Assembly (NCBI GenBank): GCA_944392595.1
Contig: CALXXD010000006.1
Location: forward strand, 7,074 to 71,073
DNA from: an uncultured Alphaproteobacteria bacterium
Lineage (GTDB): Bacteria > Pseudomonadota > Alphaproteobacteria > Rs-D84
Length of the DNA stretch: 64,000 nt
Reading direction: 5' to 3'
A program made the position numbers and the translations under genes. Under the pieces are notes generated by a model that saw only the letters and a program-made list of their open reading frames with translations, made no database searches and was not told where the DNA came from. The first letter of the stretch is position 1. Each line of letters begins with the position of its first letter. Below are positions 19,541 through 62,420 of the stretch, one piece after another.

Positions 19541-22051
19541 TTACATCTGGATATCTTCGCATATTGGATCGGTTGTTTCCGTGCTGCAAGATGTATTCCG
19601 ACTATTGTGGAACCAACTGCTGCTGCCCGTTGTTTTACAATTCTCGGTCGTAATTGTTGTACAGATGTGGCAGATTCTGGTTTCACGACTGAATATGGCC
19701 GTAACTTCTTTGGACGAACCGCCACCTTCAAAACTGGCACCGCCCAAATATCCACCATTGCTGAACTTGACGCCACCGGAACGTACAACGCCTGAACCGC
19801 CCTGGGTCAATTCATCAGCAGTCAAACCGACGCCAACCTCGTAACTGATGGAGTACGGCGGTGCCAAAGTTGTGCGGGTTTCCACGCCCACCGTGCTCGT
19901 GCCGCCATTCTCGGCCATTTTTTGGCACATGTATTGTGCGACGTCCAGGTCAGCGTCACGTGTTGCTTCTGCTATTGCAGTATTTAATTTCGCATTATAA
20001 TTATCCTGGGCTTTGCGCAATGCGGATACAGCAATCTGCATCTTGACCTGGTTCAGCAAGTTCGGGAAACGAGCCTCGGTTCTGTCGTCGTCATTGCCGG
20101 TGATTTGTGATAAATCACGCCCACTTACACAGTACTGAATTTCAGGATCACTTTCGATTAAATCTATCGTTCGATTGATTGTACCTGCGATATTATTCAA
20201 TTCTTCTTCAATTGTTTCTATGATCGCGTCACGTTCGGCCGCATTCAGCCCAGAATTATAACTTTCTTCTCTGATTTTTTCGATATAGTCGCCGACACCG
20301 ATTTCACCCGGCCCCAATTTAACTGTGCCACCATTACCATCACTGACGGTTTCGCCATCCATATCGCCCATTTTGATACTGCCGAACGAAATCATACCAG
20401 TCACGCGATATACATCACCATCCTTTTGAGACCGGATAGACCCCGCGCCAATTGTATCATCGGCCGCGAAATAATTACAGTCGGTCGTGCTGCCGCAAAT
20501 TTCGGCCATTTTTTTATCAACCAGATTTTGGCACTGTTCAACCAAAGCATTATCGATATTCAGATACAATCCCATCAACATATCGTCCAAATCATCCATG
20601 CTGAAACCCTCGTTATTCTGTTTGCAGACAACCAGCGTGTCAATCGGACACATATCATGGATATAATCATAATCCATACCGATACAGTTCTGGAAATTCG
20701 GGCCACATCGTGTATCCGCGGTAAAGCAATCTTTTACTTCTTGGGTACATGCATCAACGCGCATAGCCGCCAATTTATCTTGGACATAATCCCAAATCTG
20801 GGGTTCCATACGTTCGCAAGGATCGATTTCAACCTTGCAGAAACTGCGCGCCATATCGGGACGCGCCAAACACGCATCCATAGTCGCGACACCTTTGCCC
20901 GCAATATCATCACGGCACGCGGTTTGGATACAGTCTGAAATCTCGGTCAGGCACGATTGGCGGAATTTGGATTCCGCCATACTTTCCGCCACGCGGATTG
21001 TGGGGGCGGCCTCTTTCAAGAAACGCGGCCAAACCTCGTCCCGGACGGCAACACATTGTGCCAAAACACTTTCGCAAATCGGACGTTTTGAATTCAAAAT
21101 TTCCATAGTTGCATCCGAGATATAAAAAGTATCAACGGATTCATAATCTGTACCAGCGGTACTGGTGCTTGCGGCCTGGGCATTTTCAGCGGCCACAACG
21201 CCAACGCAATTTTCCCAATCTTCGCCACATGCATCTTCGGTGCGCATACAATTTCTGAATTCAACCATACATTGCCCCAGGTCGTATTTATTTGCGCTAT
21301 CCAAACTTTCCTGCAACGCAGTGCGCACGGCAGATTCCGCATCGGCCAATTCCAGTTCTGCATCCGCACGTTGTTTTGCCAAAGAATTTTTGAATCCCAA
21401 ACAATCAGATGTAATTTGACGCGAATATAATTGCTGTAAAAACACAATGTCTTCGGCGCATTCGTCGGGAACCTGGTTCAGACACAATTCATTGGCGGCA
21501 TTTTTTAATTGCGCGCCCTGCATTGTGGAAATATCAGCCATGGAACCGCCCCAGATATCATCATCTTCGTCTTCATAACTGGTGTTCCACATGGCCATCA
21601 GTTCCGCGCGTTCGCGTTCTTTTTGTTCAGCCTCGCTGTATTCGCCTTCGTCCAGAATATTGCCATCTTCGTCATATCGACGTTCGCCTGTAAATACGAT
21701 GTCTGCATCGGCACCAGCCTTGACACGTTCAACTTCTTCTGTGCGGATACGATTGGCCTCATTTATCATCGCCTGGATTTCTTCCAACTCGGAATTATAT
21801 CCGATAATATCGTCGCTGCATCCACACGCGCCACCACTGGCATTATCAGTAATACAAAATTGATCCATACATCCGAAATAAGCATCATAACACGCCTGGT
21901 CATATAAACCTGTGGCGGTTACTTTGGTACGAACAGTTGTTCCCTGCTGGATGGCAGATTGTTTTTTAGTGGTGGTCAAAGCAAAAGAATCAATCGCCAC
22001 CGCCGCAACAGCCAAACCCAAAACAGATGTTAAAAATATTTTCGCTTTCAT
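19541..22051 (-). CDS. Cysteine-rich secreted protein family, member A (836 aa)
   Basis: Signal peptide MKAKIFLTSVLGLAVAAVA. Family motifs QACYDAYFGCMDQFC..GGACGC, LYSRQITSDC..FKNSLAKQR, NKYDLGQCMVEFRNCM..ACGEDWENC. C-terminus ..DPICEDIQM. Confidence 0.85.
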   Translation of the reverse strand: MKAKIFLTSVLGLAVAAVAIDSFALTTTKKQSAIQQGTTVRTKVTATGLYDQACYDAYFGCMDQFCITDNASGGACGCSDDIIGYNSELEEIQAMINEANRIRTEEVERVKAGADADIVFTGERRYDEDGNILDEGEYSEAEQKERERAELMAMWNTSYEDEDDDIWGGSMADISTMQGAQLKNAANELCLNQVPDECAEDIVFLQQLYSRQITSDCLGFKNSLAKQRADAELELADAESAVRTALQESLDSANKYDLGQCMVEFRNCMRTEDACGEDWENCVGVVAAENAQAASTSTAGTDYESVDTFYISDATMEILNSKRPICESVLAQCVAVRDEVWPRFLKEAAPTIRVAESMAESKFRQSCLTEISDCIQTACRDDIAGKGVATMDACLARPDMARSFCKVEIDPCERMEPQIWDYVQDKLAAMRVDACTQEVKDCFTADTRCGPNFQNCIGMDYDYIHDMCPIDTLVVCKQNNEGFSMDDLDDMLMGLYLNIDNALVEQCQNLVDKKMAEICGSTTDCNYFAADDTIGAGSIRSQKDGDVYRVTGMISFGSIKMGDMDGETVSDGNGGTVKLGPGEIGVGDYIEKIREESYNSGLNAAERDAIIETIEEELNNIAGTINRTIDLIESDPEIQYCVSGRDLSQITGNDDDRTEARFPNLLNQVKMQIAVSALRKAQDNYNAKLNTAIAEATRDADLDVAQYMCQKMAENGGTSTVGVETRTTLAPPYSISYEVGVGLTADELTQGGSGVVRSGGVKFSNGGYLGGASFEGGGSSKEVTAIFSRETRICHICTTITTENCKTTGSSSWFHNSRNTSCSTETTDPICEDIQM

Positions 22052-22099: not shown

Positions 22100-24277
22100 T
22101 TACATATTAATATCCTCGCACGTTTCAATTTGCTGACAGAATGTTTCTTCGTTACTGGCCGCGGCACCCATCAAACCGCCACCAACAGCGCCAACAACAC
22201 CGCCGATTAACGTACCCCATCCGGCATTAACCATCGTACCCATTGACGCACCAGCCGACAAACCACCCGCAACACCCTGTAACGCGCCGGTCATCTTGTC
22301 TTGGCCGCCTTCTTCGCAAACCTGCTGCATACGACAAACGTGACAGTTACGCAAAGACGGTTCCCATGACACACTGCGGATATAACTGTAATTCTGGCCT
22401 TCCAGTTCTTTTGGATCTTCGACCTGATATGTGTTATAGCAGTTTTGTTCGGCTTCTTCCAAATCCTGCTGGCGCGACAATTCTGCAATCTTTGATTCCA
22501 ATTCACGCAAAGACCGATTTTGTGCATTAATCTGGGCAATCATTTTTGCACTGGTAAATACACTGTCGCCCAGACTGCGGCGATCAGACGGTTTTTGACT
22601 GTCTTGACACGCAGCGACGGTTTTATTCGCCTCGAACTGTTCAAAGAATTCATCAACCGCCACCTGGGCGGATGCCTTGACAGATTCACGCAATGCGGCC
22701 AAATCAGACTGATTATCTGGAACCTCGGTCAATGATGTGATTTGGGTATCCAGCGGCAAACAAGACATATCCGTTCCACAAACCGCACCCAATTGTTCGC
22801 TGAAATAATTCAAACAGCCCTGTAACATCTGGTAATCCATCTGCATCAAAGCAGCCTGGACAATAATATCAAATTGGGTTTCATTCTTGCAGGACGGGAA
22901 CATATTTTGGGGGCACAGTTCCGCGATTTCGCGCGCACTTTTCCCGACACATTCCGGCGCAGTAAAGTTTTCGCCGCATCTTTCGTGCAAACAAGAATCA
23001 ATATCATTTTGACAGAACTGGGTCCGCAAATATCCCAACTTGTCCGTGACGGTGGCTTTGATACCAGGAATCATTTCTTCGCATTCTTCGATAACCGGAC
23101 AAATACCGGCCGCAACATTAACATCTGTCAAACAAGCAGAATTTGTCCCGGTCGAACAACTGTCTTCCAAGCATAATTGGATTCGCGCCAAACACGTACC
23201 ACGCGCGTTACGATCAGCATATTTTGCGGCTTCTTCCAAAATCATTTCGGATTCATCTTGCCAATCTTCCAGAACGTATTCACGCACAGCCATACATTGA
23301 TCCAAAACATTTTCACACGCATTCGCACGACGATTTAACAAATCTGCATCCAAACAGTTTTCAAAATTAACGCCACAACCCCCCTTGTCCGCGATGCACG
23401 AACGATACGCCAACAAACACTCGCCACGATTATATTTGTTGGTTGTATCCAACATTTGCAAACGTGCCTGGCGCACAGCGGATTCGGCGGTACGCTTGTT
23501 CATTTCGGCCAAAGATTTTTGATCTTTCAAATAACTTTCAAACGATTTGCAATCTTGGACGATCATACGCGAATATAACATTTCTTCCATCGCAGCATCG
23601 TCACCACAGGCCTCTAAGCGGTCGGCACAGAATTCAGCCGCCATGGCATACAACGGATCGCCAATATCACTGTCCATACCCAAACTTGCATCTTCATCGG
23701 TGCCGCTGTTAATCCAGTCCGCAAAATTAATTCCCGACGCAGCGGAACTTTTTTTCGCGGCCTCGCTCTCGCCAAACACTAAACGCGCCTGGGCGCCCAA
23801 TTGTTCGCGTTCGACACCCTCGGTATATAACTTGTCGGCCTCGGCCTGGATATCCTGAATTTCTTGGATTAAAGATTTTGATTGATTAATATTGGACGAG
23901 CATGCGCAACGACTGCCCTCGGATTCATCCAACAAACAAAATTCATCCATACATGCCCGATACGCATCACGACAAGTTTTACTGGATGGTTTCTCGGCTG
24001 GGGTTGATGGCGTATCGTCTTTGTCATTTGACGAATCGTTTCCAGAATTATTGTTACCACTGCTGCTGTTACCGCCACTGGGGACATCTGGTTTTTCGGA
24101 CAAAGTGGGCTGGACCGTTGTTTCCGGCAAATCAATCGACGTATCCGGAATACGCACAGCCGCCTGGGCCATTCGACTTGTTCCCGCAGAACGAACGACC
24201 GCCGCATCGCCGCGCGACACAGCACCCGCAATTTCCGGCACCAAACACAACAAAGCGATTAATATCCCCTTTTTCAT
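22100..24277 (-). CDS. Cysteine-rich secreted protein family, member B (725 aa)
   Basis: Start moved to MKKGILIALLCLV (AGGTGG Shine-Dalgarno). Motifs KTCRDAYRACMDEFC..GSRCAC, LYSRMIVQDC, NKYNRGEC..GGCGVNFENC. Gly-zipper segment near the C-terminus. C-terminus ..ETCEDINM. Confidence 0.85.
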   Translation of the reverse strand: MKKGILIALLCLVPEIAGAVSRGDAAVVRSAGTSRMAQAAVRIPDTSIDLPETTVQPTLSEKPDVPSGGNSSSGNNNSGNDSSNDKDDTPSTPAEKPSSKTCRDAYRACMDEFCLLDESEGSRCACSSNINQSKSLIQEIQDIQAEADKLYTEGVEREQLGAQARLVFGESEAAKKSSAASGINFADWINSGTDEDASLGMDSDIGDPLYAMAAEFCADRLEACGDDAAMEEMLYSRMIVQDCKSFESYLKDQKSLAEMNKRTAESAVRQARLQMLDTTNKYNRGECLLAYRSCIADKGGCGVNFENCLDADLLNRRANACENVLDQCMAVREYVLEDWQDESEMILEEAAKYADRNARGTCLARIQLCLEDSCSTGTNSACLTDVNVAAGICPVIEECEEMIPGIKATVTDKLGYLRTQFCQNDIDSCLHERCGENFTAPECVGKSAREIAELCPQNMFPSCKNETQFDIIVQAALMQMDYQMLQGCLNYFSEQLGAVCGTDMSCLPLDTQITSLTEVPDNQSDLAALRESVKASAQVAVDEFFEQFEANKTVAACQDSQKPSDRRSLGDSVFTSAKMIAQINAQNRSLRELESKIAELSRQQDLEEAEQNCYNTYQVEDPKELEGQNYSYIRSVSWEPSLRNCHVCRMQQVCEEGGQDKMTGALQGVAGGLSAGASMGTMVNAGWGTLIGGVVGAVGGGLMGAAASNEETFCQQIETCEDINM

Positions 24278-24767: not shown

Positions 24768-27287
24768 ATGAGAAAGATTCTGTTCTTTATCGCGGCTTGT
24801 TGCATCAGCATCGCGGATGCTGGTGCTGTCGTTCGTGGAACAAACGCGATAAATCGAACAACGTCTTCATCCAGCGATAATGAAACTCAAACTGTTATCG
24901 CGCGCACAACGGGGCGCACCGCAACCATTGCCCAACCAAATGTCACCAGAAACACAACCGCGCGCACAAACGCCACGACTGTTTCACGCACGGCAACAAC
25001 AAACGCGCAAAAAACACGTACGGCGTCCAAATCACGCGCGGCCGCAACCACAACCGTTGCACGCGCCACCACACCAAAGGCTACATCTGCAACATCACGC
25101 GGCACATCAAACAATACAATCGCACGCACGGCAACCACACAATCACGCGCAGCATCCAACACCGTGGCACGTTCTGGTCGCGACACCGCGCGCAGCGTTA
25201 CCGTCGCACCGACCAGTGTGACAAACACATTTGGCACGGAATACAACCAATGTCGAAACGCGTACTTTACATGCATGGATCAATTTTGTGCCACAGCAAA
25301 TGATTCATACCGCCGGTGCGTATGCTCGTCCAGACTGACGGAAATCCAGGAACGCGAACGCGCGTTATCCCAGGCATCTGGTCAGTTACAGGATTTTCAC
25401 AATTTGAATATCGAAGTAATCCCCAAAACCGCGGCCGAGGTTACCGCCATGCTTACCGCAAGCGAGGGCGAAACAACATTGGAAACAACCAACGACAAAT
25501 CTGATTCAGCCGTAAAGTTGGCCGGAATACGCGATGTATTATCTTCGACAAAGAATCAATCATTAAGCACACTTGGTTCGATGGATATTGCCGGCGACAT
25601 AAACCAAATTTGGGCAACATCCAGCCTGGCATCGGGCGAAAACATATCCAACCTTACTGGCGAGGCTTTATACAACGCCGTGCATTCCCAGTGCGTTGAT
25701 TTGGTATCCGACAGATGTTCTGAATCCACGTTAGATATGGTTGTATCTGCGTATGGGATGTACATTGAAAACGATTGTTCGTTATTGTCAAATTCATTAA
25801 ATTCTCAATTGACCCAGGCCAACAGCACAATTCGCGAAACCGAACGCGAAATGAACAATGCGCGATTGGAAAATTATAACGCACACAACTCATCATCCAT
25901 TAACGAGTGTATTGCCTTGGTTCGTGCAGACATTACCAACGATGCGGCATGTGGTGAAAACTATGTTCATTGTTTGGATATAACGGGTCGGTATTTGAAT
26001 CGCGATACGGGCGAACCGATATACACACCAGACTTTTACCAATTGGAATACCAAATATCTTTGGATGGCGACGTTTTAACAAACGCGACCAATCGGTTAA
26101 TTGTTGCCGAATTGAATAAAAAACGCATATCCGCACAAAACAGTCTGGAAACATGTCGCGACATCGCAGACGAAGTCTGGGATGAATTCGTCCGCCAGGC
26201 CATTGTTGAAATTTACCAAGGCCAACAACAACGCGTACGTGACGTTAAAAACGAATGTATGCAGGTTGTAAATTCTTGCTATAACGAAAAAAATAAATCA
26301 TTACAAGATTACATAGAAGATTTACCACCTGAAATATTAACCGGGATGCGTTTGGAATTATCCGAAGAATTATGCCAAGAAAAATTATACGCATGCAGTA
26401 ATCTGTACGGCGACCCAGACGGCGATGGCCTGGAATTGTTATTAACGGCAATGCATGATTTGACCGATCAAAAAATTGCGGCCGAATGCAAAACATTATT
26501 ACAGGCATTTGCGAAAAACACCTGTAACGTCCGCTCGACTGACAGTTTGCACAGTTATCCATACGAATGCCGTGTTTATGCGCCCGGCGACGCGTTATAT
26601 GCGGACAAACCATTTTGTAACCGTCAAAATCCAGATGACTCGACAAGTTGGACTGACACAGGCCCCGACCAAATCACCACCGGCCCGGGATACGTATGCC
26701 CCACCCTGCGCAGGTATGCCAGTTGCAACGAAGGCTTTTACATGGCATATCGATCGTCAGATTTAGCCGCATGGAAATACGATGGCGTACCACGTGTCGG
26801 CAATCGTTGCAGAAAGTGCCCAGACCAATGCGTTTGCGCGGGTGGCACAAGTGCGCCAGTATGTAACAACAAAAATACCGATGGCACCGACACGGATTGC
26901 GGCGACGATTACGTCGGCAGTCTGTATCATCAAATGGTAAGATACGCAACCCAGGTTTGCGTACGCCCGTCTGAATATGATGCAATTGTCGATGGCATAT
27001 CCAGTTTGCCACAAAATATATTACAAGACGTCAATGTCGTTATGGATTCTATTAAAATCGAAATGGGCAAACAATTATCGGCCGAATGCGAACGCTTGGG
27101 CGGCACATGGGTTGATACCCAATGGATTGACGAAGACGGCGATAACAAACACGATAAAACAAATCATAAAGTATTCAAATATTTCTATGACGAAACCGGT
27201 GCAAATACCAAATGGGGATTCTGTGCCGAAATGGCCGAAGAAAGCCACACCTTCGTTGTAATTGACAGTATTAAACCGACTGATTAA
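24768..27287 (+). CDS. Cysteine-rich secreted protein family, member C (839 aa)
   Basis: AGGAA Shine-Dalgarno. Signal peptide MRKILFFIAACCISIADAGA. About 130 aa of Arg/Thr/Ala/Ser-rich tract, then NQCRNAYFTCMDQFC..YRRCVC and further Cys modules (AACGENYVHC). Confidence 0.85.
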   Translation: MRKILFFIAACCISIADAGAVVRGTNAINRTTSSSSDNETQTVIARTTGRTATIAQPNVTRNTTARTNATTVSRTATTNAQKTRTASKSRAAATTTVARATTPKATSATSRGTSNNTIARTATTQSRAASNTVARSGRDTARSVTVAPTSVTNTFGTEYNQCRNAYFTCMDQFCATANDSYRRCVCSSRLTEIQERERALSQASGQLQDFHNLNIEVIPKTAAEVTAMLTASEGETTLETTNDKSDSAVKLAGIRDVLSSTKNQSLSTLGSMDIAGDINQIWATSSLASGENISNLTGEALYNAVHSQCVDLVSDRCSESTLDMVVSAYGMYIENDCSLLSNSLNSQLTQANSTIRETEREMNNARLENYNAHNSSSINECIALVRADITNDAACGENYVHCLDITGRYLNRDTGEPIYTPDFYQLEYQISLDGDVLTNATNRLIVAELNKKRISAQNSLETCRDIADEVWDEFVRQAIVEIYQGQQQRVRDVKNECMQVVNSCYNEKNKSLQDYIEDLPPEILTGMRLELSEELCQEKLYACSNLYGDPDGDGLELLLTAMHDLTDQKIAAECKTLLQAFAKNTCNVRSTDSLHSYPYECRVYAPGDALYADKPFCNRQNPDDSTSWTDTGPDQITTGPGYVCPTLRRYASCNEGFYMAYRSSDLAAWKYDGVPRVGNRCRKCPDQCVCAGGTSAPVCNNKNTDGTDTDCGDDYVGSLYHQMVRYATQVCVRPSEYDAIVDGISSLPQNILQDVNVVMDSIKIEMGKQLSAECERLGGTWVDTQWIDEDGDNKHDKTNHKVFKYFYDETGANTKWGFCAEMAEESHTFVVIDSIKPTD

Positions 27288-27351: not shown

Positions 27352-28056
27352 ATGAAGAAAACATTAACAATTTCAGTATTATGTTTGGCGTTTGCGCCGT
27401 CTGTGGCGATGGCTGTGACACATTGGTGGGAACAACCAACCGTTTGCAAACTGGATCCAACGGATTGCTATACATCCATGGGCATCGGTTACGAAAGCGA
27501 AATGTGGGACAGCGACGCAAATTGCTGGGGCATGAAACTGATTTGTCCCGGGGCTTTAAACCCCGCCGGCGATTATCCGGTCACCATCGGTCGCAATGAA
27601 ATCAAAAGCGGCACAGGAATCAATTCAGATTTTGACACCAACGTATTAAACGGCGATTGTTTTGGTGTGCGCAAAACCAAAGACAATGGCGCGATGGCAA
27701 TGGTAAATGGCGAATACACCCGCGTTTGGTGTAATGGTATTTTGGATACCCCAGACGAATATATGCAAAACGGCGAAATCACGTACGGCGCGCAACCAAC
27801 ATGCGCCCAGTTGGCAGAATACGGATACGTTGCCGCCGTCAATAATAATTGTTACGGCAAATATTATGACCAATCGCAATATTACATCGAATGCAATGGC
27901 AATGACGTTATGCCAAGTCGTTTGATTTTATTAAACGGTGCGGATTATACTATGAACGTTGCGGGTGCGCCGGCCGATGAAAGCGCGGCGGATAAATTAT
28001 TCGACAAAATGGAATCTACGTCAGAATCGCAACGTGGCATTTATTTCAAAGATTAA
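27352..28056 (+). CDS. Small secreted cysteine-rich protein D (234 aa), unknown function
   Basis: Start moved to MKKTLTISVLCLAFAPSVAMA (purine-rich Shine-Dalgarno). About 11 Cys in the mature part. Follows gene C on the same strand. Confidence 0.7.
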   Translation: MKKTLTISVLCLAFAPSVAMAVTHWWEQPTVCKLDPTDCYTSMGIGYESEMWDSDANCWGMKLICPGALNPAGDYPVTIGRNEIKSGTGINSDFDTNVLNGDCFGVRKTKDNGAMAMVNGEYTRVWCNGILDTPDEYMQNGEITYGAQPTCAQLAEYGYVAAVNNNCYGKYYDQSQYYIECNGNDVMPSRLILLNGADYTMNVAGAPADESAADKLFDKMESTSESQRGIYFKD

Positions 28057-51897: not shown

Positions 51898-51928
51898 GGG
51901 GGGGGTAATAGCCTAAGCACACACCACT

Positions 51929-52348: not shown

Positions 52349-52381
52349 AGGGGGGGGTAATAGCCCAAGCACACACAACTC

Positions 52382-53896: not shown

Positions 53897-55969
53897 ATGA
53901 AATCTTGGCAGAAAATATTTTTGGCACCCATGACGGGTTTTGCTGTATGTATGTTAATTGGCGACGCGTACGCGGTTACGGCACGTAATGGCAACACCAT
54001 CGCCCCCCAGGTTGGACGCGCGGGCGCGACAACTGCGGGCGCAACCCAGCGTATGCCAACCATGCCATCTATGCCGAATTTCTCGGTTGGTAATATATCA
54101 ATGGATATGCCGTCCATTGTACCAGACACCCCCGACAATCCAGATAATCCGGATGAGCCCGACAACCCGGATAATCCCGATGAACCTGATAATCCAGACG
54201 AACCGACCGAACCTGAATGCCCCGATGGCGGTGTTGAAAATTCCACATACACAATTGATAACTGTATGGATGATTTGTTGCTGTGTATAAACAGTGGCGC
54301 CCTGCCCGGCGGTTTGAATGATATGTTTAATGACGAATTGCGCGCATCCATTGTTAATGGAATGAATCTGTGCGCGCCAACGGTTGAACGCTGTATAACC
54401 GATGTACGCAAAGATTGCACAAATGTATATCGCACCGCGGCCGACGTATGGACTGACTTTAATTCGCGCAAAGTCCAACCTGCATATTATAATTTTGTAT
54501 TGTTAAAAACGGGTCTGACACCGCATCAGGCTGAAAACACATGTAAATTATTGGACGTTAATACATACGGTTCTTCATTTAACGCTGTATCAAATGCTGG
54601 TGGCGTTACTGCTGAATACAACATCGGCACAGGCGCATATAATAATCAAAACGGCGGTTTATTGATAAAACGCAACCCCCAGGGTGCCACATTAAACTAT
54701 GGCAATTCCGGTGTTGATGGCGCACGCGGACATTATGCACGTTGGGATGCCGGCACGGCAGAATGCTGGGTTCGCGTCGCGGCATATAACAAAGATCAAC
54801 AGATTAAAAACAGTTGGCTGTTTGGTGCGGTTGGCAACGATCAACCGGCCGAGGTATGGCGTCGCGCGGGCGATACATTCACATGCAATCGCGATTTGTT
54901 CGGGTTTTCATTGATGAATCAGACAAACACTGCGGCTGTTGTCGGTATTGGCGGTGGCGCGGTTGTTGGCGCGGGCGTTGGCGCAATTGCGGGCCACGGC
55001 GATCGTGCGTTTGATTGCTCGATTGAAAAGCATCGTGAAATGCTGACTGATTTGTTAAAGAACGACAATCTTATTGGTGACATAAACGCATTAATCGATA
55101 ATCCAAATACCAGATTATCAAACGTTGATGGAATTATGAGCCAAAGCCAATGTAATCAGGTTGTGGAACTGTACGAAAAGTTTTCACAGGGCCGTATGAC
55201 ATTCATATCGGGCGAAGAACAATCATACCGCATGATTATAACTTTGACATGCGGCTCGGACATCCAGGCATGCTTTGACGAACATGCAACATCATGCGCG
55301 GCCCGGGGATTTACAACGATCCAAGAATGTCAAGATTATCTGAGCGCACAACGACCAAATTGCACAGGCGACCTGAACTCATGCGAAGAAAAATTCAGGG
55401 CCCAACATGGATTGTCCGAAGCGGTCGAGATTAATATAATAGATAGGGGTACGACTGAATATTCAGACGGAATGTCGCAAGAAGAAATCGAAGATCTGCA
55501 ACGCGTGTTCAGCAACACAGATTTGGTTGATTTATTGAAAAACGGCGAAGAATCCAATATGGGTAAAGCCATCGGCATTGGCGCGGGCGTTGGCGCAGGC
55601 GCAGGCGGATTGGCAACTGCGATAACCGCATTTGTCGAACGCAGCAACATCAGTTGCCATGTTGGCGATAACCTGGCCCAGGTCGGATACAACAAATCTT
55701 ATGCGATTGAATCGTTAAAAGATTTTTATGTAAAATGGAATCTGAACTTGCCGGATATAGTAACACCGACTGGCACCGCAACCGATTGCGCATCGTGGCG
55801 TCGCGCATGTAATACTGTGACGGATTTGGAACAATGCGCCTCAACCCAGATTACATACAAACCAACTGACGGCAGCACAGTAATGCAAATACCGGGCGCA
55901 TGTGCAGTATCTGGTGGCGTATGCATGGAAAATTATCCTGTTGCCAAATCACACGGCGCATGCGAATAA
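53897..55969 (+). CDS. Cysteine-rich secreted protein G (690 aa), distant family member
   Basis: AAGGGGGA Shine-Dalgarno. Signal peptide ..LIGDAYA. PDNPDNPDEPDNPDNPDEPDNPDEP linker. Many Cys (IDNCMDDLLLC, ERCITDVRKDC). Two Gly-zipper segments (IGGGAVVGAGVGAIAG; IGIGAGVGAGAGGLATAI). Confidence 0.8.
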   Translation: MKSWQKIFLAPMTGFAVCMLIGDAYAVTARNGNTIAPQVGRAGATTAGATQRMPTMPSMPNFSVGNISMDMPSIVPDTPDNPDNPDEPDNPDNPDEPDNPDEPTEPECPDGGVENSTYTIDNCMDDLLLCINSGALPGGLNDMFNDELRASIVNGMNLCAPTVERCITDVRKDCTNVYRTAADVWTDFNSRKVQPAYYNFVLLKTGLTPHQAENTCKLLDVNTYGSSFNAVSNAGGVTAEYNIGTGAYNNQNGGLLIKRNPQGATLNYGNSGVDGARGHYARWDAGTAECWVRVAAYNKDQQIKNSWLFGAVGNDQPAEVWRRAGDTFTCNRDLFGFSLMNQTNTAAVVGIGGGAVVGAGVGAIAGHGDRAFDCSIEKHREMLTDLLKNDNLIGDINALIDNPNTRLSNVDGIMSQSQCNQVVELYEKFSQGRMTFISGEEQSYRMIITLTCGSDIQACFDEHATSCAARGFTTIQECQDYLSAQRPNCTGDLNSCEEKFRAQHGLSEAVEINIIDRGTTEYSDGMSQEEIEDLQRVFSNTDLVDLLKNGEESNMGKAIGIGAGVGAGAGGLATAITAFVERSNISCHVGDNLAQVGYNKSYAIESLKDFYVKWNLNLPDIVTPTGTATDCASWRRACNTVTDLEQCASTQITYKPTDGSTVMQIPGACAVSGGVCMENYPVAKSHGACE

Positions 55970-56016: not shown

Positions 56017-56692
56017 CCACCGCACCAATGCCCCGCCCCACCGCGCAAACATAGTTTGCATAGGTGGTCAGCACGGGATAATCTAATGCCCACCGCCCCC
56101 GGGCCCCGCGCAAACCCTGTTTGCGTGGGTGGAATCCGGGCGGGGGGTGTCGCGCCCTGCGCGACGGGGGGTGTGGTTTATCACCCGAAGCCTTGGCGAA
56201 GGATGATTTATCACCCGAAGCCTTGGCGAAGGGTGGTCTATCACGAGTAACGAGTTACGAGTAACTCTACCCTTGTCATTGCGAAGGAGTACGATCAACG
56301 TTGAAAACGTTGTCGTACGACTGTGGCAATCCAGTCTTAATATGTCTGCGGGCATTCGCCCGCAGTGCTTTTTTATTTACTGGATCGCCACGCTTCGCTC
56401 GCGATGACAAAGGGGACTAAGTACCCAATCCCGCACTCTCTTACCACCCCGCCCCAACCACCCACGCGACACGTCGCGCGGGGCCCGGGTATTGGGGCAC
56501 CCCTCCAATGGAGGGGAACTTAGACCGCGTCGGTCGTACGAATGCCCACCGCCCCAGGCGGGGGGTGTCGCGCCCTGCGCGACGGGGGGTGGGGTTTATC
56601 ACCCGAAGCCTCGGCGAAGGATGATTTATCACCCGAAGCCTCGGCGAAGGGTGGTTTATCACGAGTAACGAGTCACGAGTTACGAGTAACTA
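56017..56692. repeat. Repeat island 6
   Basis: An RE-A copy flanked on each side by GGGCGGGGGGTGTCGCGCCCTGCGCGACGGGGGGTG.. plus duplicated CACCCGAAGCCT(T/C)GGCGAAGG modules and heptamers. It abuts the stop of gene H. Confidence 0.9.
56273..56410 (+). mobile_element. RE-A MITE-like element (short internal deletion near the right end)
   Basis: Collinear with 15381-15524. The right arm reads CCACGCTTCGCTCGCGATGACAA. Confidence 0.7.
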
Positions 56693-59473
56693 TTAAAACT
56701 GGGTATCGCTGCATGTTTCGACTGGATCAGCCCACTTTTTACAATACTTGTTGCCAAAGAACGGGCTGTAAGTTTGTTCACAATTTTGCTCGCTGACACA
56801 CTTGGTACAAGTCAAATTCTCCCAATCAAATGTTGTTGTAATTTTTTCGCGATAATTCCAATTACTAACCTCGAATTCACCAGACAAATCCAGATTTGCC
56901 ATATCAACAGAAGAATGATCAGTCCAATCTGACACAGCCGACCCAACCAAAACCATAGTAGCGGCCGGTATGGCAACAAAATATCCGCCATATACAAAGA
57001 CAGCTATAGCAAGCAATCCTGCACCTGCACCGGACGTTATGACAGTCAAAAGAGCAGTAGCTATAATCAAACTGATGCCAGTAATAATCCCAGACAATGA
57101 TGCCGGCGTTTTTGATTTTGCAATTCCCGACATATTTGCCATATCAACACATGCCTGCCGCGCAACCTCTCGTCTGGCATCTTTGCCGTTTTCATCACGA
57201 ATTTCTGCCATACGCTCGGCAATAGTCGCAGAATCCAAAGCTTGTTGCTCTAATAATTCATCGTATTTATCGTAATAATTCGATTTGGCTTTATTAAGTG
57301 CCTGTGTTGCAATTTTCAGACGCGTTGCTTTGGTCAATTCTGGGAATCGTGCCACGGACGTACCCGAATAAGGTTTTATGCCATCCACTTCGCGCCCAGT
57401 CATACAAAACTGCACCGTGGGGTCAGATTCAATAATACGAACAACCGTATCAATATTCTGACGCAATTCATTTAATTCTTTTGATATAAACTGTCGATCA
57501 TACTCGGTTATATCATCCATTTCAAGATTCTGAAAATACTCATCAACACTACATATATTCCCATCCTCATCAATAGTTACGCCCTCCCAATAAATAGTTC
57601 CCTCTATCACACCACTTAACGGTGTAACAGGCCCCAACGCATTAGCAGTTGAACCAGGAACACGTCCCAATTCTTCGTCTGTAATCTGATTCACACTGGT
57701 ACGACAATTTCCATAATGAACAGATTCCTCATCTAACACATAATCACAAATCTTATATTCCAAAGAACGCGTACCAATTGCGTCATTATTCACAAATTTC
57801 TGACACGTATCCAAATCACCGCATGCATCAATTGTTGCCTCTTCCAATGCGGCGTTGCAATAATCCAGCATTTCATTATCTATGTTCAAAAATATACCCT
57901 GGGCAACATTGTACAATTCATCATATACTGCATTACCGCGAATATTTTGAGCGCCATAAACTTGCTGGCATCCGACCAAAGTATCATACGGGCAAATCCG
58001 CATTATGGTGTCTGTATCCAATCCGACGCACTGGGTATAATCAGGACCACATCTGTCCGGCGATTGCAAACATTCTTTGAATTCAGTGGTGCAAGAATTC
58101 ACACGCATAGACGCCAAACGCGCCAAAACAAATTGCCATATATCCGATTTTTCTGCGGCCTGGACTGATTCAGTGGAAATCCCGCACGCATTCAACGGCA
58201 CAGTACAAAGCGACAACATTGTCCCGGGCCGCGTCAGACACGCGTCATACGACCCCGACGGATCTTTCGGATCGATATTATCACGACACGCACGTTGGAA
58301 ACAAGACGACACATTGCCGATACAATCCTGGCGCGCGTTATCTTCGGCAATTAATTCGGCATATTTAATCTGGGGCGCATTTGCACGCAGGAATGTATCC
58401 CAAACCTGGTCTGCAACAGATTGGCAATTTTGCGTGACATTATCACACAACGGCTTTTTAGATAACAAAGTATCATACGTAGATGCAGAAATTGTAACGG
58501 TGGATTGTTCGCCCGCAATATTATATTGCCGCCCTGCCCCAGATGAACGGGCGTTTGTTGCATCAAACGCGGCAATTGGCGCGCATCCCGAAAAATCGGC
58601 ACCACATCCACCCGTGGAAATCATACAATTTTTGAATTCCACCGCGCATTGCCCCAAATCCCATTTGTTGGCATTATTCAACGCGGTATAAGACGCATCC
58701 AACAACCCCAAACGTGCAGATTCTAATTTCTGTGCGGATTCATTACGCCGCTGTTTTAATGAATTTTCATACGCGGCACAATCATTATTTATTTGTTGGC
58801 TGTACAGCAATTGTATAAATTGCATATTGGCACTGCATTCAGGAATCGCCGACGCGCAAATTTGATGTGCAGATTTGAACAACGCATCCCCAGTTTTATC
58901 ATCCAACGGCAACGCCGACGCGGCGCGCGGCGCCTCTTCTTCGGTTGTATTGTTATCCCACGCGGTTAAATCAACACCTGATTCTGGCTTGGCAAAAACC
59001 GCGTTTATATCGTACCCCTTTTCCAGGCTATCGACACCAGCGGTCGCCATTTGATAAGTTTTCAAATCCAATTCTTCTATTTCGGCCAAAATGGAATCAA
59101 ATGTCGCGTTTTTATTACTGCACACGCACCGGCCACCGTTTGCAGCATCCAGCATGCACAACGAATCCATACACCCGAAATATTTTTGTTGGCATTCTTC
59201 GTTTGAAACGACGGGCTTGTTTGCGGCGACCACTTTGGTGCCCATACCAATAACTTTTTGAGTGGTTGCAGCACGCGCCGCCACAGTGGGCGATTTGGTG
59301 GTTGCCGCCGGCGTGGTTGCACTGCGTGCGGCAACCGATTGAGTTGTTGTTGTTATGGTGGCCGGCGTCGATGTGCGCGAAACAGTGCGTGTCGATGTAC
59401 CGCGCGTCGCGGCGTCTGCGGGAATATTAATCCCACATATAACCAATAAAACAACAAGCACACATTTTAACAT
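56693..59473 (-). CDS. Cysteine-rich secreted protein family, member H (926 aa)
   Basis: Signal peptide MLKCVLVVLLVICGINIPADA. Arg/Thr/Ala tract. EECQQKYFGCMDSLC..GGRCVC, LYSQQINNDC..YENSLKQRR, NKWDLGQCAVEFKNCM..GGCGADFSGC. Two TM-like helices near the C-terminus. C-terminus CKKWADPVETCSDTQF. Confidence 0.85.
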   Translation of the reverse strand: MLKCVLVVLLVICGINIPADAATRGTSTRTVSRTSTPATITTTTQSVAARSATTPAATTKSPTVAARAATTQKVIGMGTKVVAANKPVVSNEECQQKYFGCMDSLCMLDAANGGRCVCSNKNATFDSILAEIEELDLKTYQMATAGVDSLEKGYDINAVFAKPESGVDLTAWDNNTTEEEAPRAASALPLDDKTGDALFKSAHQICASAIPECSANMQFIQLLYSQQINNDCAAYENSLKQRRNESAQKLESARLGLLDASYTALNNANKWDLGQCAVEFKNCMISTGGCGADFSGCAPIAAFDATNARSSGAGRQYNIAGEQSTVTISASTYDTLLSKKPLCDNVTQNCQSVADQVWDTFLRANAPQIKYAELIAEDNARQDCIGNVSSCFQRACRDNIDPKDPSGSYDACLTRPGTMLSLCTVPLNACGISTESVQAAEKSDIWQFVLARLASMRVNSCTTEFKECLQSPDRCGPDYTQCVGLDTDTIMRICPYDTLVGCQQVYGAQNIRGNAVYDELYNVAQGIFLNIDNEMLDYCNAALEEATIDACGDLDTCQKFVNNDAIGTRSLEYKICDYVLDEESVHYGNCRTSVNQITDEELGRVPGSTANALGPVTPLSGVIEGTIYWEGVTIDEDGNICSVDEYFQNLEMDDITEYDRQFISKELNELRQNIDTVVRIIESDPTVQFCMTGREVDGIKPYSGTSVARFPELTKATRLKIATQALNKAKSNYYDKYDELLEQQALDSATIAERMAEIRDENGKDARREVARQACVDMANMSGIAKSKTPASLSGIITGISLIIATALLTVITSGAGAGLLAIAVFVYGGYFVAIPAATMVLVGSAVSDWTDHSSVDMANLDLSGEFEVSNWNYREKITTTFDWENLTCTKCVSEQNCEQTYSPFFGNKYCKKWADPVETCSDTQF

Positions 59474-59483
59474 TTAACATGCA

Positions 59484-62420
59484 TTAAAACTGTATATCTT
59501 CACACGTTTCAACTGGGTCAGCCCACTTTTTACAGAATCTTCTGCCGCCTTTCGGATCAGTACAATTCTGTCTGCGCGTACATCTGTGACAAACCATAGT
59601 CTGCCAATTAAAGGTCGAAGTAATGGTTTCCTTATAATTCCAATTATTTACAACCTTGGATCCAACCAAGTCACGTTCTTGGGATGAAGTAGAATTTTGT
59701 TTTCCCCACGATCTGCCCATACTTGACGACTCTGCAACTCCTGTACAAGCCAACCTTGCACTTTCACGGCGCGCATCATCCAAATTTTGATTTTGGATTT
59801 CTGCTATACGCTCACTCAGCGAAACATAATCATCCATACGTTTCTTTTCTAATTCGGCATACTTTGTGTTATAGTTCTCAGTCGCGATTTTAATCGCAGA
59901 CGTGGCTATTTTTGCACGCATTTGCGTTGTTAAACCTGGGAAACGACCCTGACCAGACCTATCCACAGTGACGGCACCCAATCCCGCACTCTCTCGGGTA
60001 CTTGAACTCTCATCATTAATTTGGGTTCTGCCCCGGTCATTTACCCCCTGAACGACGCGTCCTTCTGTACAGAACTGAACTTGCTGATTGGATTCAATCG
60101 CGTTAATAGCATTATTGATATTATTCTGCAACATCCCCAATTCGTTTTTTATACTCCTGATTTGTTCCTCTGATCCAGCAATGGTACTTTCATCCAAAGC
60201 AATTAAACCGGTTTCGTCATCGAACGATATAGCATTCCACGGAATTTCCCCCTCAATTATAATAGCCAGTTTCGCACCCCCCGAAGCATTAACCTCCATC
60301 GCGGACGCCAGACTCTCATCTATGTTACGATACGTATATTCCGCTTGCTCGTCTTCATCATTTGATACACTTCCCTGTGCTAAACTTGTATCACGTCCTA
60401 ACATTTCATCAGATATTTGCGAAATCTCGGTATAACAATTGCCATAACTGACATCCGTCCCAGTCCCAGACGTTATTTCACAAATTTTATATTCCAGCGT
60501 ATTTGTACCTATATTCTCATTTACCGTCATATTGTCGCAATTTTCGGTACTGCCACAGACTGAAATCATGGCCTCGTCCGCGGCGTCTTGGCATTCAGTC
60601 AATAAGTTATTTTCAATATTCAGGAAAATTCCCTGGACAATCGGTTCCAAATTGGCATAAAACTGGTCACGCTCGCCCCAACCAGAATTCAACAAATTAT
60701 CCGTTTCTGCATTCCGATAATTACGGCATCCGACCAGCAATTCTTCGGGGCACATCTGGATAATAGTGTCCGTATCCAACCCGATGCATTGCGTATAGTC
60801 AGAACCACATCTGTCCGCGGATTGCAAACATTGTTTTACCTGATCTGTACAAGAATTAACACGCATAGATTCCAAACGTGCAACAACAAGATCCCAAATA
60901 CCATTTGGATCGATAATATCGTCATCATTCTTTGGATCCGTGGTTATACCACACGCGTTCAGCGGCACAGTACATAACGAAAACATAGTTTTCGGGTTGG
61001 TCAAACACATATCGTACGAACCATCGGGATCATTGGGATCCATTGTATCTTTACAGGCCGTCTGGAAACAAGACGATATATTGCCGATACAGTTTTGACG
61101 TGCGTTATCCGTGGCAATCAGTTCGGCGGATTTAACCTGGGGCGCAACCTCGCGCAGGAAAGCCAGCCACACTTGATCGCCACCGTTTGCCTCGTTCGCA
61201 GTTACGCATTGTTTTGTCACACTTTCGCACAACGGTTTTTTGGAATATAAAATATCGTACGTAGATTTTTGAATTTCGATACTTGTCATTTCGCCCGCTA
61301 TTTTATACGTATTGCTTAAATCTTTATTGGAGCTGCGAACATTCACCGCATCAAACGCAGCAACCGTGGCACAGCCTGAAAAATCGTCGCCACATTCGCC
61401 TGTATCAATCATACATTGCTTGAATTCAAGCACACATTGCCCCAAATCATACTTGTTGGCATTCTGATATTGTTCCAACGCCGCACTGTACAGTGCCTGT
61501 TCAGCGGTATATAATTTTTGCGCACTGGCGTTACGTTGCTGCTTTAATGAATTTTCATACGCGGTACAATCAGAACGAATTTGTTGAGAATACATTAATT
61601 GCAACATCCCGATTTCATTGGAACATTCAGGCATTTGCTGGATACAAATATCATGCGACGCGGCATATAACGCGTCACCCTCTTTGCCTTCGATTGGGCT
61701 TTGATAAACATCAATAACATCGTCAAAAATACTGTCTTCTTCGGCATCTATGGGCGTCATCCAAGAATTCAAATCTGGCAATTGTAACGGTCCTTTGTCT
61801 TGCTCGTCCAAAATGGCCTGGGCGACCGCATTTGCATTCGCGATTGCAGTCTCGGCCGCGTCACCCATTTCTATACGTTCAACACCGTATGTCGCCATCT
61901 GATACGATTGCTGATCCAATTCTTCAATCTGGGCCAAAATATCATTCAGTTCAGCATTTCTGTCACTGCAAATACAACGCCCACCACTGGCGTTATCCAA
62001 CATACAGAACGAATCCATACACCCATAGTATTTTTCACGGCATTCTTGGCTGACCACAACGTTTTCATTTGCGGCCGCGACCTTGGTTCCTGTGGAAATA
62101 ACCTTTTGTGTTGTGCCCGCACGCGCAACCGCACTGCGTGCAACCCCAGACCCAGACCCACTGGTACTTGCGGCCGGTGCGCGACTGACCGTGGTGCGTC
62201 CAACCGTTGCGGCACGTGCCGCCGTCGCGGGTGCAGCACTGCGTGCAGAAACCGCACTGCGCGCCGTTGTCGCACTGCGCGCAGTCGTCGAACGTGTGGC
62301 GGTTGTGGCCGCCGCCCCAGACGATGCCGCCGTGCCGCCGCGCGGATTTCGCGCCGTCGCAGCATCTGCGTTATAAACAACACCAACCAACAATGCACAT
62401 AAAATTGCAATTTTTTTCAT
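59484..62420 (-). CDS. Cysteine-rich secreted protein family, member I (978 aa)
   Basis: Signal peptide MKKIAILCALLVGVVYNADA. Long Ala/Arg/Thr/Ser tract. QECREKYYGCMDSFC..GGRCIC, MYSQQIRSDC..YENSLKQQR, NKYDLGQCVLEFKQCM..GECGDDFSGC. C-terminus CKKWADPVETCEDIQF. Confidence 0.85.
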   Translation of the reverse strand: MKKIAILCALLVGVVYNADAATARNPRGGTAASSGAAATTATRSTTARSATTARSAVSARSAAPATAARAATVGRTTVSRAPAASTSGSGSGVARSAVARAGTTQKVISTGTKVAAANENVVVSQECREKYYGCMDSFCMLDNASGGRCICSDRNAELNDILAQIEELDQQSYQMATYGVERIEMGDAAETAIANANAVAQAILDEQDKGPLQLPDLNSWMTPIDAEEDSIFDDVIDVYQSPIEGKEGDALYAASHDICIQQMPECSNEIGMLQLMYSQQIRSDCTAYENSLKQQRNASAQKLYTAEQALYSAALEQYQNANKYDLGQCVLEFKQCMIDTGECGDDFSGCATVAAFDAVNVRSSNKDLSNTYKIAGEMTSIEIQKSTYDILYSKKPLCESVTKQCVTANEANGGDQVWLAFLREVAPQVKSAELIATDNARQNCIGNISSCFQTACKDTMDPNDPDGSYDMCLTNPKTMFSLCTVPLNACGITTDPKNDDDIIDPNGIWDLVVARLESMRVNSCTDQVKQCLQSADRCGSDYTQCIGLDTDTIIQMCPEELLVGCRNYRNAETDNLLNSGWGERDQFYANLEPIVQGIFLNIENNLLTECQDAADEAMISVCGSTENCDNMTVNENIGTNTLEYKICEITSGTGTDVSYGNCYTEISQISDEMLGRDTSLAQGSVSNDEDEQAEYTYRNIDESLASAMEVNASGGAKLAIIIEGEIPWNAISFDDETGLIALDESTIAGSEEQIRSIKNELGMLQNNINNAINAIESNQQVQFCTEGRVVQGVNDRGRTQINDESSSTRESAGLGAVTVDRSGQGRFPGLTTQMRAKIATSAIKIATENYNTKYAELEKKRMDDYVSLSERIAEIQNQNLDDARRESARLACTGVAESSSMGRSWGKQNSTSSQERDLVGSKVVNNWNYKETITSTFNWQTMVCHRCTRRQNCTDPKGGRRFCKKWADPVETCEDIQF

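What the first reader, a model, noticed from the sequence alone, without database searches (positions are those of the whole stretch)
19541..62420. Expanded orphan family of large cysteine-rich secreted proteins (nine genes, about 18 kb of the window)
The nine genes are A 19541-22051, B 22100-24277, C 24768-27287, D 27352-28056, E 48987-49865, F 49862-51607, G 53897-55969, H 56693-59473 and I 59484-62420. All begin with a signal peptide and are Cys-rich. A, B, C, H and I are collinear by eye. Near the N-terminus they share CxxxYxxCMDxFC...GGxCxC (QACYDAYFGCMDQFC / KTCRDAYRACMDEFC / NQCRNAYFTCMDQFC / EECQQKYFGCMDSLC / QECREKYYGCMDSFC). Next comes LYS(R/Q)QIxxDCxx(F/Y)xNSLKxxR, then NKYDLGQCxxEFxxCM...CGxDFxxC and further CxxxxxC...CGxx(F/Y)xxC modules. 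D, E, F and G share only the module style (RCGSDWSNC, KCGNDFTEC). I recognise no enzymatic or known adhesin domain. Several members carry Gly-zipper or TM-like segments (B, F, G, H). The genes occur as tandem pairs (B-A, I-H) and an ATGA-coupled pair (E-F), each bounded by repeat islands or strong terminators. This share of the window given to one unrecognised family suggests a lineage-specific surface coat, a disulfide-bonded envelope lattice or an effector arsenal.
Basis: partly seen in the sequence, partly recalled or inferred. Interest (0 to 1): 0.85.

Follow-up and report, generated by a model that had tools for sequence, protein, structure and literature searches.

The report
Disulfide-rich envelope protein family of Enterousia
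A tiny-genome gut bacterium (Candidatus Enterousia) spends about 2% of its DNA on large, exported, cysteine-rich helical proteins. They match no known family, are conserved like housekeeping genes, and most likely form a disulfide-bonded part of the cell envelope.

Summary
A, B, C, H and I are one family (profile-profile probability 98.8-100%, about 20 invariant Cys). E and F share only a 36-residue 'twin Cx6C' module with it. D and G are separate families that sit in the same conserved gene clusters.

All nine are Cys-rich (4.4% against 0.76% in 21 other genes). All nine show strong enrichment of adjacent cysteines seven residues apart.

The window comes from Candidatus Enterousia (order Rs-D84, Alphaproteobacteria), a gut lineage with genomes under 1 Mb. 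The family is not an orphan: it has 1056 cluster representatives, all unnamed. Nor is it a recent expansion: each paralog has 1:1 orthologs in fixed synteny.

dN/dS is 0.08-0.16, like ribosomal protein L9. The neighbouring autotransporter and OmpA protein score 0.38.

Cys counts keep their parity across species: A 36, B 36, H/I 38, E 20, G even; C, D and F always odd. This argues for disulfides and for one intermolecular bond in C, D and F.

No Pfam, NCBIfam, PDB sequence or Foldseek match exists.

Best reading: a disulfide-stabilised periplasmic or outer-membrane scaffold. A variable coat or an effector arsenal is disfavoured.

The parts
19541..22051 (-). A: core family member, 836 aa, 36 Cys in the mature protein, two twin-Cx6C modules (253-288, 426-462), C-terminal Cys-rich beta domain; second gene of the B->A operon
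   Evidence: Terminator-like hairpin at 19522-19536.
22100..24277 (-). B: core family member, 725 aa, 36 Cys, two modules, C-terminal double Gly-zipper (664-708); N-terminal post-signal Arg motif
24768..27287 (+). C: most divergent core member, 839 aa, odd Cys count (31 here; odd in 69 of 75 orthologs). Its single module lacks the second Cys in all the ortholog variants printed. Long T/A/R-rich N-terminal region with repeated [VI][AST]R[ST] motifs
27352..28056 (+). D: unrelated 234-aa exported protein with 9 conserved Cys (odd in 71 of 72 orthologs); found directly downstream of C in every locus that covers that position. Candidate disulfide partner of C
   Evidence: Terminator-like hairpin at 28090-28104.
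48987..49865 (+). E: 292-aa exported protein, 20 conserved Cys, one twin-Cx6C module (144-180); N-terminal CLDSVC...RC motif resembles the core's CMDxFC...RC but the match is not significant
49862..51607 (+). F: 581-aa exported protein, two twin-Cx6C modules (141-174, 213-247), Gly-rich hydrophobic segment 371-395, odd Cys count in 26 of 26 orthologs; ATGA-coupled to E
53897..55969 (+). G: separate, highly conserved 690-aa family. It has an invariant N-terminal RMPxMP motif, a conserved N domain (RGHYARWD, RVAAYNKD, NSWLFGA), two Gly-zippers (345-366, 557-581), six Cx6C pairs and an even Cys count in 36 of 37 orthologs
56693..59473 (-). H: core member, 926 aa, modelled. Long helices, an internal duplication (255-400 ~ 443-555), a hydrophobic hairpin-length segment 787-851, and a C-terminal five-strand Cys-rich domain 864-925
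59484..62420 (-). I: core member, 978 aa, 45% identical to H, no hydrophobic segment; first gene of the I->H pair. Most relatives carry a single H/I gene here, next to rplQ
15689..17476 (-). OmpA-domain protein (595 aa) with Gly-rich hydrophobic segments and CxC-type Cys repeats. It lies between G and F in most relatives; Cys count odd in 17 of 24. Probable peptidoglycan-binding partner of the cluster
52815..53771 (-). p318: conserved membrane protein (N-terminal TM segments), divergently transcribed from G in all 27 loci longer than 12 kb that were listed; no family match
9159..9992 (-). Membrane-anchored DsbA-like thiol:disulfide oxidoreductase with a CPYC active site; plausible oxidant for the family

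Best explanation
These genes encode a lineage-specific set of Sec-exported, mostly alpha-helical proteins that are locked by many intramolecular disulfides. Together they form a structural scaffold of the cell envelope (periplasm or inner face of the outer membrane) of Candidatus Enterousia.

The building block is a helix carrying two Cys seven residues apart, followed by a CGxDFxxC loop that folds back on it (the twin-Cx6C module). Further Cx6C helices pair with each other.

Some subunits (B, F, G, H) carry Gly-zipper or hydrophobic hairpin segments that dip into a membrane. An OmpA-domain protein in the same ancestral cluster ties the assembly to peptidoglycan. C, D and F each keep one unpaired Cys, so C-D (and possibly F with the OmpA protein) are predicted to be covalently linked heterodimers.

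Shown here: the homology, the Cx6C periodicity, parity conservation, purifying selection, synteny, and the absence of known domains.

Inferred: localisation, disulfide connectivity, the heteromeric pairs and the structural role.
For: - Export signals are present on all nine proteins.
- Cys spacing of 7 is enriched about tenfold, and in the H model the first two Cys of each module lie in helices with the CG...C part in the following loop.
- Cys numbers are fixed (A 36 in 77 of 79 orthologs, B 36 in 78 of 80, E 20 in 25 of 27, D 9 in 71 of 72). Where the number varies, it changes in steps of two with parity kept: C mostly 29-39 and odd in 69 of 75; F 15 to 69, all odd in 26 of 26; G even in 36 of 37.
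- The module of C lacks one Cys in all the ortholog variants printed.
- A DsbA-like CPYC protein is encoded in the window.
- dN/dS is 0.08-0.16, equal to that of L9. It is 0.38 for the adjacent Pmp autotransporter and the OmpA protein.
- 1:1 orthologs occur in fixed synteny across the 40 genome loci and 27 long metagenome loci listed. In some genomes G lies next to D-C|B-A (L037, L094), and the OmpA-domain protein usually lies between G and F.
- Gly-zipper and hydrophobic hairpin segments are present.
- The host lineage has genomes under 1 Mb and is predicted to depend on a partner (PMC12306168), so 18 kb kept under selection implies a core function.
Against: - There is no experimental or proteomic evidence of localisation.
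- No SignalP or TM predictor was run.
- The AF2 model of H is only moderate (pLDDT 73, pTM 0.43), and its coordinates could not be inspected for disulfide geometry.
- The lineage is reported to keep MreB, RodA and MrdA, hence peptidoglycan. A replacement sacculus is therefore not obviously needed.
- The gut is anoxic, and the lineage lacks a respiratory chain to reoxidise a DsbB-type enzyme.
- Conserved N-terminal Arg-containing motifs in B, C, F, G and H/I are not explained by a purely structural role.
Confidence: 0.45

Rival explanations
1. They are surface-exposed adhesins, or attachment and uptake structures, that bind a partner cell (bacterium, protist or host epithelium) on which this metabolically crippled bacterium depends. 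Disulfides merely toughen them for the gut lumen.
For: - The lineage lacks standard transporters and many biosynthetic pathways. The published analysis suggests unknown membrane-bound proteins may mediate interaction with other cells (PMC12306168).
- Both clusters sit beside large exported proteins: a Pmp-repeat autotransporter and a 1263-aa protein.
- The N-terminal low-complexity regions with conserved RMPxMP and A-x-T-x-R motifs could be sorting or docking signals.
- G has a very conserved globular N domain of unknown fold.
Against: - No outer-membrane translocation domain, lipobox or known secretion signal was found.
- dN/dS is as low as for a ribosomal protein, and clearly lower than for the neighbouring autotransporter.
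- There is no adhesin-like fold or repeat.
Confidence: 0.25
2. The cysteines are metal or redox ligands rather than disulfides. The proteins would be periplasmic metal-storage or thiol-buffer proteins, comparable in principle to Cys-lined helical copper storage proteins.
For: Cys lie on one face of helices at i, i+7. The habitat is anoxic, and no respiratory chain is reported to drive DsbB.
Against: - Cys density (4%) is much lower than in such storage proteins (my own recollection, not tested here).
- Counts change in steps of two with parity kept, as expected for disulfide pairs.
- The CGxDFxxC part is a loop, not a helix face.
- A DsbA-like oxidase is present.
- There are no His/Met-rich or CxxC metal motifs apart from one CxxC in the C-terminal domain.
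Confidence: 0.05
3. They are secreted effectors or toxins (an 'arsenal') delivered to competitors or host cells.
For: They are large, exported, lineage-specific proteins without known domains. Some have hydrophobic hairpins that could insert into target membranes.
Against: - One-to-one orthology and fixed synteny, with essentially no copy-number variation beyond the H/I split.
- Strong purifying selection.
- No immunity-like small genes, no toxin domains, and no T1, T3, T4 or T6 secretion context in the window or loci.
Confidence: 0.05

Closest known systems
Chlamydial cysteine-rich envelope proteins (OmcA/OmcB of the outer membrane complex)
   Same: They are Sec-exported, Cys-rich proteins of a reduced-genome, host-dependent Gram-negative, thought to stiffen the envelope through disulfides. 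In both cases the genome also encodes Pmp-repeat autotransporters; here PF02415 matches the gene at 28126-31356. The chlamydial part of this comparison is from my own knowledge.
   Different: There is no sequence or fold relationship: no Pfam hit of any kind. The proteins here are mainly long helices rather than beta-rich. Most of their Cys appear paired within the chain (even, fixed counts) rather than available for an intermolecular lattice.
Twin CxnC helix-loop-helix proteins (CHCH twin Cx9C and small-Tim twin Cx3C proteins of the mitochondrial intermembrane space)
   Same: Two Cys lie at a fixed helical spacing and are paired with a second Cys pair, in an oxidising compartment that is topologically equivalent to the periplasm.
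   Different: The spacing here is 6. The second pair sits in a CGxDFxxC loop rather than a second long helix. The proteins are 300-1000 aa with many such units. CHCH did not come up in the Pfam scan.
Helicobacter cysteine-rich proteins (Hcp, Sel1-like repeats)
   Same: Secreted helical repeat proteins in which short-range Cys pairs bridge neighbouring helices (my own knowledge).
   Different: No Sel1 match in Pfam. There is no regular tandem repeat array, only one internal duplication of about 110-145 aa.
Gly-zipper outer-membrane proteins (SlyB/Pcp type; YiaD Gly-zipper/OmpA lipoprotein)
   Same: B, G and F carry GxxxG-rich hydrophobic segments like those that anchor these proteins in the outer membrane. 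An OmpA-domain partner is encoded in the cluster.
   Different: The matches are below the curated cut-offs (16 bits against 25; 17.7 against 175). There is no lipobox. The Gly-zipper is a small part of much larger proteins.

Membership tests
Any Pfam-A or NCBIfam family | Score at or above the curated cut-off for at least one model | tested here: not met
   no hit reaches its cut-off for any of the nine proteins. The precomputed Pfam column is '-' for all 240 listed A-type and H/I-type relatives and for 119 of 120 G relatives. Scans of 30 G and 30 D orthologs gave nothing consistent.
Proteins with a solved structure (by sequence or by fold) | Significant profile match to a PDB sequence, or a Foldseek match with E<=0.001 | tested here: not met
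   hmmsearch of the core, module, G and D profiles against PDB sequences gave no hit better than E about 1. Foldseek with the H model: best E 0.53 in PDB and 3e-3 (TM 0.09) in BFVD. Foldseek with the G model: best E 6.6. The G model has low confidence (pLDDT 59).
Chlamydial OmcB/OmcA cysteine-rich envelope proteins | Sequence homology to the chlamydial proteins | tested here: not met
   No such Pfam or NCBIfam match.
Chlamydial OmcB/OmcA cysteine-rich envelope proteins | Intermolecular disulfide cross-linking in the envelope | not testable with these tools
   Only indirect evidence: odd, parity-conserved Cys counts in C, D and F.
Gly-zipper_Omp / YiaD Gly-zipper-OmpA lipoproteins | Gly-zipper domain above the cut-off, plus a lipoprotein signal | tested here: not met
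   B scores 16.1 bits against a cut-off of 25 (PF13488) and 17.7 against 175 (NF053611). There is no conserved lipobox; the LSAC of E is absent in its orthologs.
Disulfide-bonded exported proteins (even-Cys criterion as used for Dsb substrates) | Exported, with a conserved even number of Cys that are gained and lost in pairs | tested here: met
   A, B, H/I, E and G are even in 95-99% of orthologs. C and F vary in steps of two while staying odd. DsbA-like gene.
Autotransporter / two-partner secreted adhesins | C-terminal beta-barrel translocator or TPS domain | tested here: not met
   No PF03797 or TPS match in the nine proteins. The C-terminal domain of H is a 60-residue five-strand sheet.

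The most novel reading that the evidence does not exclude
The clusters encode a previously unseen kind of bacterial envelope skeleton. It would be a multi-subunit, disulfide-stapled helical lattice with covalent C-D and F-OmpA links, anchored by Gly-zipper hairpins. It would let an obligately partner-dependent, non-sporulating anaerobe survive passage between hosts, a functional analogue of the chlamydial elementary-body envelope that arose independently in Alphaproteobacteria. The conserved N-terminal Arg / RMPxMP motifs would be a new envelope-sorting or docking signal.
Probability: 0.15. Interest if true: 0.8.

Novelty: new variant of a known kind. Interest (0 to 1): 0.55.

Why it matters
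Rs-D84/Enterousia bacteria are widespread in human, livestock and bird guts and have genomes under 1 Mb, yet they have never been cultured and their way of life is unknown. A genome this small does not keep 18 kb of non-essential genes under strong purifying selection. These proteins are therefore likely central to how the cell is built or how it holds on to a partner.

They also define at least one new protein domain (the twin-Cx6C module). They offer a clean, testable prediction of covalent heterodimers from Cys parity alone. If they are envelope proteins, they would also be specific markers or handles (antibodies, FISH-coupled sorting) for finding the organism and its partner.

Tried and rejected
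- Pfam and NCBIfam scans of all nine proteins, and of 30 G and 30 D orthologs: nothing above the cut-offs.
- PDB sequence searches with four profiles: nothing.
- AF2 plus Foldseek for H against PDB and BFVD, and for G against PDB: only generic long-helix or tiny-sheet matches, TM<=0.12 for full-length alignments.
- Lipoprotein idea for E (LSAC) and C (IAAC): rejected. The Cys of E is absent in its orthologs, and for both proteins the AxA site is the conserved feature.
- C-terminal Phe as an outer-membrane beta-signal: rejected on the sequence. There is no alternating hydrophobic pattern, and A and B end in Met.
- Homology of the E or G N-terminal 'C[ML]D...C' motif to the core CMDxFC motif: it aligns as expected but is not significant (probability 1.6% or less).
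- D and G as divergent family members: rejected by profile-profile comparison with 72 and 37 orthologs.
- Recent expansion or antigenic variation: rejected by synteny and dN/dS.
- Literature: the two searches on the lineage names returned 16 and 12 papers. The four I opened or searched within do not describe these proteins. A search for 'CX6C' with 'periplasm' gave nothing relevant.
Full report
**What is there.** All nine ORFs exist as described, with ATG starts and no internal stops. Each begins with a basic residue or two, a hydrophobic stretch (Kyte-Doolittle >=1.5 in the first 40 residues) and an AxA-type site. This is what Sec signal peptides look like, but no dedicated predictor was available. 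Together the genes cover 18,330 bp, 28.6% of the window. They contain 4.4% Cys, against 0.76% in 21 other genes of the window.

**Whose genome.** The other genes are those of a Gram-negative alphaproteobacterium:
- ClpX, PGK, TIM and GrpE;
- ribosomal proteins L9 and L17;
- a CcrM-type methylase;
- SLT and a PpiD/SurA-like chaperone;
- OmpA-domain proteins;
- a Pmp-repeat autotransporter.

The nearest named relatives of gene A are hypothetical proteins of Candidatus Enterousia, and the related loci come almost entirely from gut MAGs labelled Alphaproteobacteria or Enterousia. One related locus lies on a circular 958,618-bp chromosome (L015). Enterousia belongs to order Rs-D84. Its members have genomes below about 1 Mb and lack respiration, most biosyntheses and standard transporters. 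They are thought to depend on a partner organism (PMC12306168). [quoted passage not shown] None of the papers I opened describes this family.

**How many families.**
- A, B, C, H and I are one family. BLASTP E-values run from 0 to 9e-13. There are 20 invariant Cys columns in a five-sequence alignment. Profile-profile probabilities between orthogroup alignments are 98.8-100%. H/I-type proteins contain an internal duplication (residues 255-400 ~ 443-555, 87.5%).
- A 36-residue module, CxxExxxC-x(4-6)-CGxDFxxC, occurs twice in A, B, H, I and F and once in C and E. It occurs nowhere else among the ORFs of 138 loci except four unassigned ones. This module is what links E and F to the core (E-HI 80%, F-B 72%, F-HI 64%, E-F 61%).
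- D and G are not detectably related to the core, even with 72 and 37 orthologs. G matches F and B only over a Gly-zipper.

The 'family of nine' is therefore five core members, two that share a module, and two others.

**A shared signature.** In all nine proteins, adjacent cysteines lie seven residues apart far more often than chance. That spacing accounts for 63 adjacent pairs, and the next most frequent spacing has 15. Per protein the count is 10 (A), 8 (B), 4 (C), 11 (H), 11 (I), 6 (E), 5 (F), 6 (G) and 2 (D), against 0.3-1.3 expected from shuffles. P<=0.0012 for seven of them, 0.013 for C and 0.027 for D. The Cys-rich OmpA protein and its upstream neighbour have none.

In the AF2 model of H (79 sequences, mean pLDDT 73, pTM 0.43) the first two Cys of each module lie in a helix and the CG...C pair in the loop that follows. 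The protein is dominated by long helices (211-268, 351-398, 514-551, 715-782). It ends in a five-strand, five-Cys domain (864-925), preceded by a low-confidence hydrophobic segment of about 60 residues.

**Disulfides.** After trimming signal peptides by alignment, the Cys number is nearly fixed:

| Orthogroup | Cys count in the mature protein |
|---|---|
| A | 36 in 77 of 79 |
| B | 36 in 78 of 80 |
| H/I | 38 in 31 of 39 (even in 36 of 39) |
| E | 20 in 25 of 27 |
| D | 9 in 71 of 72 |
| G | varies (20-34), even in 36 of 37 |
| C | mostly 29-39 in steps of two, odd in 69 of 75 |
| F | varies from 15 to 69, odd in all 26 |

Gain and loss in pairs with parity kept is the expected mark of disulfide-bonded exported proteins. 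It argues against four-Cys metal sites.

The module of C lacks its second Cys in all the ortholog variants printed, which leaves one partnerless Cys. C and D are both odd and lie next to each other in every locus that covers both. This suggests a covalent C-D pair. F is odd, and in most relatives it lies next to the OmpA-domain protein, which is odd in 17 of 24. That second pairing is weaker. A membrane-anchored DsbA-like protein with a CPYC site is encoded at 9159-9992.

**Not a recent expansion and not fast-evolving.** Every one of the 40 genome loci printed that covers those positions has the same arrangement: Pmp autotransporter, then D<-C, then B->A. In metagenome loci found through G, the order is L17, one H/I-type gene, p318, G, the OmpA protein, F, E, and often a 1263-aa exported protein. 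In L037 and L094, G abuts D-C|B-A, so in some genomes everything forms one block. Only the H/I split, and a few extra copies in L121 and L125, are recent.

In this window the OmpA gene has moved to 15689-17476, and mosaic repeat islands lie at the junctions.

Against the closest genome (L001), dN/dS is 0.09 (A), 0.08 (B), 0.16 (C) and 0.09 (D). Ribosomal protein L9 gives 0.09 and the MotB-like gene 0.04. The Pmp autotransporter and the OmpA protein both give 0.38.

The family has 1056 representatives at 50% clustering with E<=0.001, of which 520 reach E<=1e-30, among 1.84 billion. None of the few relatives that carry a source name is called anything other than hypothetical protein.

**Other features.**
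- B, C, F, G and H/I carry a low-complexity region after the signal peptide with conserved Arg-containing motifs. A[AV][TV]xR right at the predicted cleavage site occurs in C 70/75, H/I 32/39, G 29/37 and B 43/80. RMP[ST] occurs in G 36/37 (RMPxMP is invariant in the 68-sequence alignment A5), F 18/26 and B 15/80. Neither RMP[ST] nor the repeated [VI][AST]R motif is seen in A, D or E beyond a few chance matches. Their role is unexplained; a sorting or docking signal is possible.
- Hydrophobic or Gly-zipper segments occur in B (664-708), F (371-395), G (345-366, 557-581) and H (787-851). They occur in about half of the H/I orthologs (21 of 39).
- In both operon pairs of the core family, one partner has such a segment and the other does not (B with, A without; H with, I without).

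**Comparison with what is known.** Nothing reaches a curated cut-off in Pfam or NCBIfam. No PDB sequence matches any of four profiles. Foldseek finds nothing for H (best E 0.53 in PDB; BFVD best 3e-3 with TM 0.09) or for the low-confidence G model.

By analogy only, the closest ideas are:
- the chlamydial cysteine-rich envelope proteins;
- the twin-CxnC helix-loop-helix proteins of the mitochondrial intermembrane space;
- the Helicobacter Hcp/Sel1 proteins;
- the Gly-zipper outer-membrane proteins.

Membership in each was tested and not met.

**Interpretation.** The evidence best fits a conserved, disulfide-stapled, multi-subunit structural assembly of the envelope (confidence about 0.45). A partner-attachment or adhesin role is the main rival (0.25). 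It fits the biology of the organism but fits the low dN/dS and the absence of an outer-membrane export device less well. Metal or redox proteins and an effector arsenal are unlikely (0.05 each). The remainder is unknown.

**Limits.** No localisation data exist. No signal-peptide or TM predictor was run. Model coordinates could not be inspected. The taxonomic range is inferred from record titles only.

Noticed in passing
window 1-700, 10780-11820, 15376-15650, 51697-52800, 56083-56690, 62570-62613: Mosaic islands of short dispersed repeats: G-rich hairpin units such as CACCCGAAGCCTTGGCGAAGGGTGG, GAGTAAC heptamer runs, and a 154-nt unit in four copies. They are surprising in a genome under 1 Mb. 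They sit where gene order differs from relatives; the OmpA gene, for example, has moved away from G and F.
   Followed up: partly
window 31846-32161 (next to tRNA-Gln 31593-31666): A 147-bp unit repeated 2.1 times at 99% identity, just downstream of the only tRNA gene in the window.
   Followed up: no
window 28126-31356 (-): Autotransporter with Chlamydia-type Pmp repeats (PF02415 and PF03797). It is conserved next to D but evolves fast (dN/dS 0.38 against the closest genome; 36-81% identity among orthologs).
   Followed up: partly
window 15689-17476 (-) and 17473-18504 (-): An OmpA-domain protein with Gly-rich hydrophobic segments and CxC-type Cys repeats whose number varies widely between species (9 to 37 Cys). 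It overlaps by 4 nt an upstream 343-aa exported Cys-containing coiled-coil protein with no family match.
   Followed up: partly
window 11825-12937 (-) and 12962-13711 (-): A MotB-like protein (long coiled coil plus OmpA domain) and a weak MotA/ExbB-like membrane protein (E 0.0019, below the Pfam cut-off), in a lineage reported to lack flagella. They are conserved (55-88% identity) near the B-A pair in many relatives.
   Followed up: no
window 32800-38442: A low-GC stretch (0.385-0.416, against about 0.46 elsewhere). It carries a TupA-like ATP-grasp, a short-chain dehydrogenase, a TPP enzyme and a polysaccharide pyruvyl transferase. It looks like a surface-polysaccharide island, possibly acquired.
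   Followed up: no
window 38492-39616 (+): A choloylglycine hydrolase family gene (bile-salt hydrolase type) kept in a genome with very little metabolism.
   Followed up: no
window 44252-48043 (-): A 1263-aa exported protein with a weak ankyrin-like N-terminus, a hydrophobic segment at 119-144 and no other family match. It is conserved beside E-F in many relatives.
   Followed up: no
window 52815-53771 (-): p318: a membrane protein with N-terminal TM segments and no family match. It is divergently paired with G in all 27 long metagenome loci listed, so it may belong to the same system.
   Followed up: partly
window 4652-5209 (+): A gene with a SocA/Panacea antitoxin domain (PF13274, E 2e-14). 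No toxin partner was looked for.
   Followed up: no
N-termini of B, C, F, G, H, I (e.g. G residues 27-60; H 22-88): Conserved short Arg-containing motifs directly after the predicted signal-peptide cleavage site (A-A/V-T/V-x-R; RMPxMP; repeated V/I-A-R-S/T). They are found on six of the nine proteins and on no other ORF of 100 aa or more in the window. Their function is unexplained.
   Followed up: partly
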